A DNA stretch of 64,000 bases from Octopus vulgaris. Lineage: Eukaryota. Positions 4,923-59,432 of the stretch are shown here, in pieces. How positions within the stretch are numbered: the first letter of the stretch is position 1; each line of letters begins with the position of its first letter. The position numbers and the translations under genes are program-made. Location of the stretch: contig OX597830.1 in assembly GCA_951406725.2 (NCBI GenBank), forward strand, positions 71,362,001-71,426,000, given 5' to 3'. The notes under the pieces are model-generated. The model ran no database searches and was not told the origin of the DNA. It worked only from the letters and a program-made list of their open reading frames with translations.

Positions 4923-5199
4923 TAATTCATACTTCATATAATTGCATATAATATTGCTCCTTCCCTTAAGTAATAATATTCATATCGTGTTTTAAGTGTT
5001 TTAAGGGATTATATATCCTTCTTGTAGTTGCAGCCGCCTTTTTCTTTCTCATTATCATAACCACTGAATTTATAAAGTGACATTGTTGAGAATTAGCAGC
5101 AGCATCTCTCTCTCCATCATCAATATCAACGTAACCACGATTTAATTTTATTATCACAATAATTATTATTTATCCTGTCTCTCATTGTCATTACTGATA

Positions 5200-5232
<33 letters not shown>

Positions 5233-5922
5233 ATGCTAATTGACCTAAACGTTAAAAAAAAATTTTGCCATATTTATGAGGATATTTTATCGCCATAATT
5301 CGATTTAATTACCAACCAGAGACTTTTATACAGTTTCGAATTGAGAAAATATTACCGCCTTCACTTTGATGAAATAAATAACTATTAAAAAAACAAAACA
5401 AATGAAGATCAGAGACAAATTTTAAATAATTATGCATCTTCAGAGAGGTCTTCTTGGTAGGAATACAACCAGGCGTGTTAACAGAAATCCTCGTGTTACA
5501 TTCAGCGCAAACCGGCATCACTTAAAAAATTATACTGGTTACAAAACAAGATCTACGAATTCTTAAATAATTTTCAGTTTAAATATAGAGAAATAAATGT
5601 CAAATATAGACACAGAAAAACAATAATCAAAAACGTGTGTGCATGCACGCACACACGCACACACACAAACACACACACACACACGCATACGTATAAATAC
5701 ATGCATTTTGATATATTTAAAGTGTTAAAGTGTTATTAAGATGGCTAACTGGCACAAATGTTAGCGGCATTTCGTCTTCACTTCCTGAGTTCAAATTCCG
5801 CCGAAGTCAAATATGCCTTTCATCCATTCGAGGTCAGTAAAATAAGCACCTTGAAATTACTGGCAAAAATTTGAAATCAATATATTTAAAGTGTTAGAAA
5901 ACGGTCGTAAAATCTAATCTCA

Positions 5923-6291
<369 letters not shown>

Positions 6292-7075
6292 TACAACCGG
6301 TGCTAGTTTGTTTATGTTCCTGTAACTTTGCAATTCTGCACGAGTAACCTGTAAAATATGTAGCAGAATAAGAGAACGATATACGACAGGTAATTTGTTA
6401 GACTCGACCCTCCAAAGCAGTGTTCCACCATGAAATAAATATAAGATTTATTAATTTGTAGTTATAAACATGCACCTAATTGAAATTTCATTCTTGGTGC
6501 GGCTTCTGGTTCTAACTTAAATCCCAGGCATGCCTTGGAATGGGTCATAACTGGTGTTCCTAGAGTCCTAAGTCCAGTCTTTCTACTCATTAAATCTCAG
6601 AAATTCCTTGCCCAGTGTCCAGCCCCTTTTATCCAGTACCATATAATAGATTTGTTTGTAGAATCGGTTATGGACTTTGCGCCGGCTCTAACCTCACTAC
6701 AATACAAAGATTCGTTAAAAGAAGGCACTGCATTCGTTTCTGAGAACTAAACCGAAAATATATCTGTTAGTAGCAGAATTTTCCCGAAATGTCTAATTTA
6801 TAATCATAACACACTTTTCTTCAAATGGTTTTGGTTGTAGTAATGTGTTATCGATATGATATATTTTGGAATATGCAATAAAATATTTTAAAATAATTAT
6901 GGTTATCTATTTCCAGCACATATCTTTGTATGTTAAAATGATTTGATTGTAATATTATAATTTGAGAAGAACTCAGTGCAACTTAAAAGGAATAGCGCAT
7001 TTTCCTATATTAATGGTTACTTTTTCACATAAATATGTATGAATGTATGCATGTAAATATGTGTGTATGTGTGTG

Positions 7076-7115
<40 letters not shown>

Positions 7116-7585
7116 AACCAAGCCCAAAAGGCATAATTTATTTTTTCTCCTAGCAGTGTCCGGATTTGAACGCAACCAGCTGGCACACAGCCCAAGGAAT
7201 TTTGTTCAACTATACTTTAAGAACTCTACCAATTTAGCACCACTCACACACACACACACACACACACACACATGGTTGTATAATAAATGCATATTCAATT
7301 TCTGAGCTACAAATCCAATGTTATTTAGGCACTGAATATAGAAAGAAGAGAAGCACCAAAAAAAAAAAAAAAAGCATGACGTTATCTCCCATTTCCATTC
7401 CCTTAGATGCCAATTATATTCAAAGAAATTCCAACCTGTTGTACGTCTTCGATTGGACGATCTCTTGTCGTCTTCTTATCGTCTTTCTTTTTCAGATTAA
7501 CCTTTAATTATTGTTGCGATGCTACTTTCCTTCCATTGATATTTTTCTTTCCTTCATTCACTTTTTAAGTTCTTTCATATATATA

Positions 7586-21859: not shown

Positions 21860-21904
<45 letters not shown>

Positions 21905-22818
21905 AAGATGTGTTATAACACTATTCCACAGCCATACCAACAATCTAACATACCTCCATCATCAGCTGCATCACGGATGTCCTTATGGTTTCGACACTTG
22001 GCCAGTACCATTCAATCCGGCGATGTCAACAGCACTAAAATCAGTGTTGTTTGGAAACAAACAAGACAAAGAGACCACAACATTCAAACACATTCCCACT
22101 ATGTACAACCGTATCAGTAAATAAATTCTCTAAGTAAATTACAACCATCTTCTAAATACGTAACTAAACAGCGACAAACTATTAAGTCTTACAAAAATTA
22201 AAATTCCTACTGTCTTCCATAGTATAATATAAAAGTGAAAGCTTAACAACCACATTCATTCAATCAATTTATTTGCAGGATTAAACACTAACTTTAATAA
22301 AACTACAACAAAGAAGTATAAACCAATGTACAATATATCGGTAATAATAATAAACTGCATCAACTAAATTATGTGCTAAATCGCGACCACTCTTTACGTC
22401 CATACAAATAATAATCCCACCAGTCTTCCATAGTTACTACTAGAATGAAAGTTAAGTCTTTATATAAATCTCTCTAAATCAAAACAAACACGATTGAAAT
22501 TAATTTAAGTAATAACAGTAATGAGTGAAATACATTATTTTATCGTTCAAAAGTTAATAAAATTCTATATACTCATTAACATATCACTACTACAAGCTAT
22601 AATATTAAATTATCAGTAACTAATAGAAACATTAGATTTCTTTAAATAAGAACTAATAAAAGTACTTGTAATAAACTATTATTATTAAACTTTGCTATGT
22701 TTAAAGCTAATCAAAACTGTTTAAAAGATAATAAAACTACAAACATTAACACTTACATATATATATATATTTATATAACATTTATATATATAATATATAA
22801 ATATATATATACATTCTG

Positions 22819-22852
<34 letters not shown>

Positions 22853-22865
22853 ACATACACACACG

Positions 22866-22920
<55 letters not shown>

Positions 22921-23450
22921 GGCAAATAAGAAAATGGAGAGTATACAAAATCGACAGACATCAGCCGGTAAACTTTCTAGTATATCTATTTATTCTCATG
23001 TATTAGATGAATACATACACATTTATTAGTGGTACAGAATATTAAAGAGAATGAGATGGCAATTGCAAGAACAAGGGTGTGGAATCATATAATCATATAG
23101 GAACAGATGATTAATTAAGTAAATGAGCAAATTAGCAGATTGTCAGTAGTTGCTAGATCCTTACGGCCGTTTCTGCCGAGAGGCAACGAAATCTTCTAGG
23201 TTATCTCCATTCTTCAGTGTTATTTAGGGATGAGCAGGTAAGGCTTGGATAATGAATGTGCCTCTAGGCTTCTTCAGAGGGTCAAAGTGGTTGGGAGAGC
23301 TAACATAAATGAAAAACAGTTAATAATTGCTACAGTTTGTCTTTTTAAAAAAGGGTAGAGAAGGAGTAGGAGTAAGAATAAGAACAAACATGAGGATGTG
23401 AGTGAAGTACATCTTAATGTATTGATTTGAGTATAGTAAGGGGTAATGAT
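22921..23450 (-). mobile_element. Probable Penelope-like pseudo-LTR remnant beside (TA)n
   Basis: Begins at the TA tract edge and contains an HHR; right boundary uncertain. Confidence 0.5.
23156..23283 (-). ncRNA. Type I hammerhead ribozyme with long stem II and 73-nt loop
   Basis: GACCCT-CTGAAGA-A-GCCTAGAGGCA-(73 nt)-TGCCTCTCGGC-A-GAAAC-GGCC-GTA-AGGATC. Confidence 0.7.
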
Positions 23451-39618: not shown

Positions 39619-40160
39619 TATATATATATATATATTTCAATTTTTTTACAGTTTTTTTTCTTGGTTCTGCTATTTACTCTTTATACTCCAAATCTCTTCA
39701 GTATATTCGCTGACGAACTATTACGACAAATTCGAAACTCTGAGACTGATAAAGGAAAAAAAAATTAATTAATTAATTTACTGATTATATTCTTTTATAT
39801 GAATTTAATTTTCCTCGTTAAATTTGTTGCTTTGTTGTTGCTTTCACTTTGGTTGTAAAGTGGGCTTCTGAACCATAAGCATAGATTTTCTAAAATCTTA
39901 CGTGATGCGTGACGCACCTATATCACCGTTTGAGAGCAACTGGTATAGAGAGCCCTTTGTAAGATTTCGCAAGGTCAAAAAAATTATTGTTCGGACTTAA
40001 ATGGTAGCTACAGCGGATAATAGGAAGCAGGTAGTGAGCAAGTCAGAGGATGGGATTGGCCGAGAACCTGCCGTAGGCCCACTAAATTATTTCTTGTTTA
40101 TTTCTATACTCCTGTCGCTTTATCGTGCAGATTTCTCTATTAAGTATTTCAAATCGTGAA

Positions 40161-58848: not shown

Positions 58849-59035
58849 CATATATATAATAATAAATATTAGGGAATAAATCCAAATTTACAGGGAAAAA
58901 TCAGATTTAGGATTAAATCCAATTTTATAGTAAAATATTATATAATATAATTCGAGACAAAACCACTATTTTGCAAAACAAACAAGGAAAGACTTAATCA
59001 ATACATAAAAAATTTTAATATAAAGAAATAAACCG

Positions 59036-59078
59036 CCACTACAATCGTTTCATGTCTTCAATGACATTCGTCAGGTGG
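59036..59078 (-). ncRNA. Type I minimal hammerhead ribozyme, minus-strand copy
   Basis: Exact reverse complement of 59292-59334. Confidence 0.85.
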
Positions 59079-59291: not shown

Positions 59292-59334
59292 CCACCTGAC
59301 GAATGTCATTGAAGACATGAAACGATTGTAGTGG
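59292..59334 (+). ncRNA. Type I minimal hammerhead ribozyme
   Basis: CCAC-CTGACGA-ATGTC-ATTGAA-GACAT-GAAAC-GATT-GTA-GTGG; complete core, stems I-III, GUA cleavage triplet. Confidence 0.88.
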
Positions 59335-59432
59335 CGGTTTATTTCTTTATATTAAAAATTTTTATGTATTGATTAAGTCTTTCCTTGTTTGTTTTGCAAA
59401 ATAGTGGTTTTGTCTCGAATTATATTATATAC

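What the first reader, a model, noticed from the sequence alone, without database searches (positions are those of the whole stretch)
23156..23283. Hammerhead with an 11-bp stem II enclosing a 73-nt loop that holds a second CUGAAGA
Seen (minus strand): stem I GACCCT/AGGATC (5 of 6 pairs), core CTGAAGA (23277-23271), stem II GCCTAGAGGCA/TGCCTCTCGGC (10 of 11 pairs), GAAAC, palindromic stem III loop GGCC, and GUA. The loop (23186-23258) contains another CTGAAGA at 23217-23211. An A-A mismatch sits at the base of stem II. Known: PLE HHRs usually have short stem II and palindromic loop III. Inference: a split-core architecture that descriptor searches with short loop limits would miss. This copy may be decayed.
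Basis: partly seen in the sequence, partly recalled or inferred. Interest (0 to 1): 0.78.

Follow-up and report, generated by a model that had tools for sequence, protein, structure and literature searches.

The report
Long-armed hammerhead in a Penelope transposon
This is a decayed copy of a jumping gene (a Penelope-like retrotransposon) carrying a likely self-cutting RNA whose second arm is about 100 letters long instead of the usual 10-30, an arm kept across the family and missed by the standard RNA-family library.

Summary
The motif is real and not chance (0 of 200 shuffled windows). It is one 5'-truncated copy of a repeat with at least about 790 exact half-motif matches. The repeat is the 3' UTR/pseudo-LTR of a Hydra-clade Penelope-like retrotransposon: RWK, DKT, CxCx5C and C-terminal GIY-YIG motifs are linked to it. 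The two core halves close a type I hammerhead across a 95-109 nt helix II domain in four lineages. The long-range stem shows three compensatory pairs, stem I one, the inner helix two to three. The '73-nt loop' is therefore mostly an irregular hairpin extension, loosened in this subfamily and decayed in this copy. The second CUGAAGA is not a core: it fits no hammerhead permutation and is lost in 58 of 58 B/C1 copies. The A-A pair is subfamily consensus, not decay. Rfam finds no hammerhead. Cleavage is untested. Verdict: new variant of a known kind. Side lead: the neighbouring Naiad element may carry a non-circularly permuted hammerhead.

The parts
22913..23447 (-). 5'-truncated 3' UTR/pseudo-LTR fragment of a Hydra-clade Penelope-like element, ending at the family's internal 3' end
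   Evidence: BLAST to 29 other copies; internal end shared by 15 of 30 copies; ORF linkage in other copies
23278..23285 (-). stem I 5' strand (3 bp distal, 2-nt internal loop, 3 bp proximal); private change at 23284 breaks one distal pair
23271..23277 (-). catalytic core, first half CUGAAGA
   Evidence: intact in 100 of 128 copies
23270..23270 (-). A facing A23174 at the base of helix II; A-U in B/C1, G-U in D
   Evidence: columns 25/141
23259..23269 (-). long-range stem II, 5' arm
23186..23258 (-). helix II extension: irregular hairpin in the family, decayed here (inner helix 23250-23247 with 23194-23191; private changes at 23224, 23210, 23197)
23211..23217 (-). second CUGAAGA: 3' strand of the apical hairpin, not a core
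23175..23185 (-). long-range stem II, 3' arm
23163..23173 (-). core second half GAAA and the self-complementary 8-mer 23170-23163 (stem III: 2 bp plus GGCC loop as monomer, 8 bp as dimer)
   Evidence: sequence; palindromic GGCC or AGCT in 93 of 128 copies
23161..23162 (-). predicted cleavage site after the GUA triplet (between 23162 and 23161)
   Evidence: hammerhead consensus; the only block solution found; not observed
23154..23161 (-). stem I 3' strand
22757..22919 (.). (TA)n microsatellite at the 3' junction, the typical Hydra-clade target
   Evidence: PMC8557442 section 11

Best explanation
This is a decayed, 5'-truncated copy of the 3' end of a Hydra-clade Penelope-like retrotransposon, and its type I hammerhead, with helix II extended to a roughly 100-nt hairpin, likely cut the RNA of the source elements after the GUA triplet. 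Shown: family membership, linkage to the RT/endonuclease ORF, position about 0.3-0.4 kb before the element's 3' end and, in tandems, upstream of the next ORF, and compensatory pairing in stems I and II and the inner helix. Inferred: the extension folds away as a rod so that the core assembles like a compact hammerhead; cleavage likely needs two copies pairing through the palindromic stem III, and probably help from the element's own protein, as reported for the Anolis Poseidon element; cuts at successive pseudo-LTRs would release unit-length RNA from tandem or read-through transcripts. This copy keeps the core but has lost the inner fold and is likely inactive.
For: Family: 42 matches from 390 candidates, full-length ones 79-89% identical; 503 and 289 exact 3'-half matches against 0 and 1 controls. 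Linkage: L091 holds RT and EN remnants, a 2.5-kb 3' UTR with the ribozyme, and an inverted copy of the ribozyme tail abutting the truncated ORF; EN end and UTR lie in the same orientation at six places by coordinates; sense ribozyme upstream of the ORF in L265, L267, L276. Selection: core plus stem II arms 87-100% identical between 8 subfamily majority sequences, insert 56-72% between lineages. Covariation on 35 copies of four lineages: stem II pairs GC:21/UA:14, AU:21/GC:13, GC:14/UA:14; 88.9% of cells paired against 20-43% in slid controls. Inner helix on 55 copies: CG:29/UA:21 and CG:26/UA:12. Domain II z -2.0 to -6.0 in 8 of 8 majority sequences and -4.0 in D. Dimer and protein dependence are by analogy: PMC4209133, PMC11167929.
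Against: No cleavage data. The compensatory changes are few events (lineage splits); the measure 'pairs with a change on both sides' does not beat shuffles (467, 354 and 106 of 500). RNAalifold on 44 decayed copies found no consensus structure. Only 48 of 86 copies give stem II probability above 0.5, and the B2 majority prefers another fold (0.05) in full context. The insert alone is not significantly structured in A1 (z -0.36, +0.64), A2 (-0.8) or D (-1.45). GGCC to AGCT in stem III could be CpG decay. A-A at the base of helix II may lower activity (recalled, not tested). PLE hammerheads cleave poorly in vitro, and no reads ended at the site in the Anolis element.
Confidence: 0.75

Rival explanations
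1. The hammerhead fold is kept mainly as a binding or positioning element for the RT/EN protein and cleaves little or not at all.
For: In the Anolis element, ribozyme cleavage was not needed for insertion in vitro and needed protein (PMC11167929 passages). The A lineage amplified with an A-A pair at the base of helix II.
Against: All catalytic nucleotides and the GUA site are kept across four lineages while N7 and the stems vary, the pattern expected for catalysis.
Confidence: 0.15
2. The core is a working hammerhead, but the extension is a tolerated neutral expansion whose only constraint is to fold out of the way (compatible with the main reading; it denies the arm any role of its own).
For: Inner structure is loose in A1, A2 and D; inner helices slide in register between lineages; length is 98-109 nt in D.
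Against: Length is 95-97 nt without indels in A, B and C at 56-72% identity while flanks fall to 13-60%; inner helix has compensatory pairs; no short-loop version of this family was found (9 compact hits, none homologous to the L091 element beyond simple repeats).
Confidence: 0.5
3. The second CUGAAGA is an alternative core that makes a nested, switchable or permuted ribozyme.
For: Present in 46 of 68 A-lineage copies and 1 of 2 C0 copies; it could be a relic of an old duplication.
Against: No stem I/II/III solution in any block order within 250 nt in three A majority sequences or this copy; absent in 58 of 58 B1, B2, C1 copies and not seen in D; it sits in the apical helix.
Confidence: 0.04
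4. Chance assembly of motif pieces in repeat-rich DNA.
For: This copy folds no better than shuffles.
Against: 0 of 200 shuffled windows; hundreds of copies; covariation.
Confidence: 0.01

Closest known systems
Hydra-clade PLE hammerheads (Craig et al. 2021, PMC8557442; section 11 and File S2 read)
   Same: Type I motif near the 3' end, extra base or mismatch at the base of helix II, near-palindromic stem III, (TA)n targets, RWK/DKT/CxCx5C protein.
   Different: Listed Hydra loops II are 3-10 nt on 3-7 bp stems; here domain II is 95-109 nt. Published elements are mostly under 3 kb; this family has a 2-3 kb 3' UTR. The listed Hydra-1_Obim ribozyme is a different sequence.
PLE-X1_sMoe and PLE-X1_sTam hammerheads (same File S2, marked 'deviates from canonical structure')
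   Same: PLE hammerheads with a lengthened helix II region (9 bp plus 35-nt loop; 29-nt loop; counted by me from the table).
   Different: Spike-moss EN-minus elements; loops less than half as long; the table gives no covariation for them.
Minimal PLE hammerheads (Cervera and de la Pena 2014, PMC4209133, parts 1-2 of 4 read)
   Same: Larger helix II (7-8 bp), base between A9 and 10.1, palindromic stem III, dimer model.
   Different: Here stem III has 2 bp plus a tetraloop and helix II continues for about 80-90 nt more.
Clec2 discontinuous hammerhead (seen only as described in review PMC6155905 passages; the original was not held)
   Same: Core halves far apart in a 3' UTR.
   Different: Type III with the long insertion in helix I (150-1500 nt), single-copy host gene; here type I, helix II, transposon.
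Anolis Poseidon PAc hammerhead (PMC11167929, passages)
   Same: PLE pseudo-LTR hammerhead; model for protein-assisted cleavage.
   Different: Poseidon clade, compact helix II overlapping the start codon.

Membership tests
Type I hammerhead ribozyme | CUGANGA, GAAA and NUH core in C-G-S order | tested here: met
   one solution, type I, in 6 of 6 majority sequences and this copy
Type I hammerhead ribozyme | Three helices supported by covariation | tested here: met
   few independent events; stem III change may be CpG decay
Type I hammerhead ribozyme | R-Y pair at the base of helix II | tested here: inconclusive
   A-A then G-C in A lineage; A-U in B/C1; G-U in D; many published Hydra motifs have U-U there
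Type I hammerhead ribozyme | Match to an Rfam hammerhead model | tested here: not met
   0 gathering hits in the window; no hammerhead among 48 matches at E<=1 in 4 better copies. The compact Penelope-type motif at 59296 is also missed, so this says little about membership.
Type I hammerhead ribozyme | Site-specific self-cleavage | not testable with these tools
   no bench data; only contigs available
Hydra-clade PLE | RWK motif | tested here: met
   RWK in L265, L272, L274, L276; RWR in L267, L268, L273, of 13 loci scanned
Hydra-clade PLE | DKT in place of DKG | tested here: met
   11 of 13 loci
Hydra-clade PLE | CxCx5C linker, C-terminal GIY-YIG EN without CCHH, CxxC and CxH motifs | tested here: met
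   motifs read in L132, L133, L126; Pfam GIY-YIG in 3 of 5 EN-bearing fragments, best E 1.9e-4, 22.1 bits, just under the 22.6 cut-off
Hydra-clade PLE | (TA)n insertion, tandem pseudo-LTRs, 5' inverted copies | tested here: met
Hydra-clade PLE | Generally short (<3 kb) | tested here: not met
   ORF end to terminus 2.5 kb in L091 and 3.1 kb in L127; a typical trait, not a diagnostic motif
Hydra-clade PLE | Placement in an RT phylogeny | not tested
   reference proteins were not available as stored sequences; assignment rests on motifs
Non-LTR retrozyme | Short head-to-tail repeats with no coding part | tested here: not met
   no such array in the window; the element carries an RT/EN ORF
Non-circularly permuted hammerhead (SGC/CSG/GCS) | Blocks in non-circular order | tested here: not met

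The most novel reading that the evidence does not exclude
Probability: 0.3. Interest if true: 0.75.

Novelty: new variant of a known kind. Interest (0 to 1): 0.5.

Why it matters
What hammerheads do in Penelope-like elements is an open question. This family offers natural variants (A-A, A-U or G-U closure; tight or loose arm; four lineages) in which core and long-range stem were kept under selection, which makes protein-assisted or dimer cleavage testable. It also shows that Rfam and short-loop descriptors miss hundreds of genomic ribozyme copies. The copy in the window is itself a dead insertion, and long helix insertions are compatible with known hammerhead chemistry, which limits the surprise.

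Tried and rejected
Rfam: nothing. RNAalifold on 44 decayed copies: no structure. A covariance model was built but not used for any search. Naiad origin: considered, rejected once the Hydra ORF appeared; the Naiad fragment is a separate neighbour. Non-autonomous element or retrozyme: considered when L061/L062 showed 2 kb without RT; that stretch is the long 3' UTR. Idea that stem II is sequence-invariant rather than covarying: held until lineage D. Compact ancestors: 9 hits, no homology beyond simple repeats and one weak EN match (E 0.009). Expression: no RNA holder listed; four guessed-RNA runs held contigs of other copies, which cannot show ends or strand: no verdict. Four runs labelled as other organisms (B, C, D, E) held family-like contigs at 80% likeness; summed depth peaked over the two ribozyme halves, but contig depth is no copy number, so it is not counted as evidence. 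Protein search with the EN fragment gave one unnamed hit among 118 candidates; Pfam found nothing for RT and UTR fragments. Earlier scan findings: none.

Full report
Observation. A type I descriptor allowing up to about 150 nt between the core halves and at least 10 of 11 stem II pairs finds only this site in the window and none in 200 shuffles. The copy itself does not favour the hammerhead fold, and Rfam reports nothing.

Repeat family. The genome is 2.8 Gb and, by its likeness to published octopus Naiad elements, probably an octopus (inference). The region is one copy of a dispersed repeat: 42 matches from 390 candidates, of which 40 were scored. The window copy spans 23447-22913, is 5'-truncated and ends in (TA)n. 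Of 30 copies, 15 end at the same internal point, 12 at a terminus about 165 nt further on, 3 elsewhere. Exact matches to the 3' half number 503 for lineages A-C and 289 for D; these are lower bounds.

Parent element. Walking upstream gave 2 kb without RT, then in L091 a broken ORF with RT and C-terminal endonuclease remnants, a 3' UTR of about 2.5 kb that holds the ribozyme, and an inverted copy of the ribozyme tail abutting the truncated ORF. EN end and UTR recur in the same orientation at six places. L265, L267 and L276 carry the ribozyme in sense upstream of the ORF, the tandem pseudo-LTR layout. RWK, DKT, CxCx5C, CxxC and CxH motifs and a near-threshold Pfam GIY-YIG match are the features that Craig et al. 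give for the Hydra clade (PMC8557442 section 11). I saw no intact ORF in the 21 long loci translated. No tree was built.

Ribozyme anatomy. From 183 profile hits, 129 distinct near-full-length copies were kept (short hits and duplicates dropped; one rearranged copy removed later) and split into 8 subfamilies; lineage D was found afterwards. B and D copies were selected by their 3' half, so only their 5' halves are unselected; in D, 13 of 30 have the exact complementary 5' arm and 15 of 30 an intact first core, the others being truncated or mutated. Core plus arms are 87-100% identical between majority sequences, the insert 56-72% between lineages. Domain II is 95-97 nt in A-C and 98-109 nt in D. 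On 35 copies the long-range stem has three pairs changed on both sides between D and the rest, and stem I has one. On 55 copies of A-C the inner helix has two well-populated compensatory pairs. Slid controls pair 20-47% of cells against 86-89% for the model. These changes are few evolutionary events, the count of doubly changed pairs does not beat shuffles, and the structure was chosen by me from folds of the majority sequences. RNAalifold finds the stem on the 8 majority sequences but not on 44 decayed copies. The insert alone is clearly structured in B1, B2, C0 and moderately in A3 and C1 (z -2.1 to -4.6), but not in A1, A2 or D, and not at all in this copy (z +2.3).

Second CUGAAGA and A-A pair. 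The second heptamer has no partner stems in any block order, is present in 46 of 68 A copies and 0 of 58 B1/B2/C1 copies, and forms the 3' side of the apical hairpin. The A-A at the base of helix II is fixed in lineage A and is A-U or G-U elsewhere; published Hydra motifs often have U-U there.

Mechanism. Shown: family, linkage, position, pairing. Inferred: the arm folds as a rod and lets the core assemble; the self-complementary stem III favours dimers, as proposed for PLE hammerheads (PMC4209133; PMC6765202 passages); protein help is by analogy to the Anolis element (PMC11167929 passages); cuts at successive pseudo-LTRs would free unit RNA. I put 0.75 on this, 0.15 on a mainly non-catalytic role, and about even odds that the arm itself is merely tolerated.

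Known context. Hydra loops II listed by Craig et al. are 3-10 nt; the longest in that table are 35 and 29 nt in spike-moss elements. Clec2 ribozymes have a long helix I instead (PMC6155905 passages). Seven literature searches listed no paper on a roughly 100-nt helix II hammerhead in PLEs or on octopus PLE ribozymes beyond Craig et al.; most hits were seen as listings only. Lunse et al. 2017 (small PLE variants) and Martick et al. 2008 were not held, bioRxiv supplements were closed, and Repbase/Dfam could not be checked, so prior cataloguing is possible. Papers seen: PMC4209133 parts 1-2 of 4; PMC8557442 passages, section 11, supplement parts 1, 2, 24 and search passages; PMC10085705 section 13 and passages; bioRxiv 10.64898/2026.07.22.740005 part 1 of 5 and passages; passages only of PMC3088659, PMC6765202, PMC11167929, PMC13725137, PMC7229834, PMC6155905.

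Verdict. A real, previously unnoticed variant as far as these searches reach: a type I hammerhead with a roughly 100-nt helix II in a large Hydra-clade family, here as a decayed copy. Interest 0.5. The permuted-hammerhead lead in the adjacent Naiad element may deserve more attention than the finding itself.

Noticed in passing
window 21959-22011 (-), within a Naiad 3' UTR fragment at about 21901-22757: Hammerhead blocks in S-G-C order: 5-bp stem III, GUA site at 22008-22006, GAAA at 21992, CUGAUGA at 21965; stem I 6 bp in the family majority (3 bp here); stem II only 2 bp. 17 of 30 copies fit an SGC descriptor; 1618 first-look candidates. Craig et al. class Naiad_Ovul as 'HHR_half_core'. By eye, their Nippostrongylus (Nbra-3), Heligmosomoides and Stegodyphus mimosarum Naiads parse as C-S-G with full stems I-III of different sequence, and Euprymna as S-G-C without stem II. 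Naiads may thus carry the non-circularly permuted hammerheads of Eckert et al. 2023 (PMC10085705); searches listed no paper saying so. No covariation statistics or assay.
   Followed up: partly
window 59296-59335 (+) and 59035-59074 (-): Compact type I hammerhead in an inverted pair (176 bp at 99%), typical of a PLE insertion of another family; missed by Rfam.
   Followed up: partly
L114, L123, L129 (55-nt domain II); L264 (84 nt); L122 (41 nt): Other, unrelated-looking hammerhead motifs in this genome with long hairpin-like helix II: long arms may recur in this genome's PLEs.
   Followed up: partly
L091 oriented 5072-7565; L124; L127: The family's 3' UTR is 2-3 kb, far longer than in listed Hydra elements; it holds microsatellite-like tracts and a 123-codon hydrophobic stop-free stretch in L062 (5686-6054) with no Pfam match.
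   Followed up: partly
L001-L030, 3' ends: Two preferred 3' ends about 165 nt apart (15 and 12 of 30), the internal one ending in GTATA against (TA)n, suggesting internal priming of reverse transcription.
   Followed up: partly
window 39638-39701 (-): Loose type I descriptor hit with 5 stem II pairs; within chance expectation.
   Followed up: no
L164, L165, L166, L169: A compact hammerhead family whose helix II starts with similar bases; no homology to this element found.
   Followed up: partly
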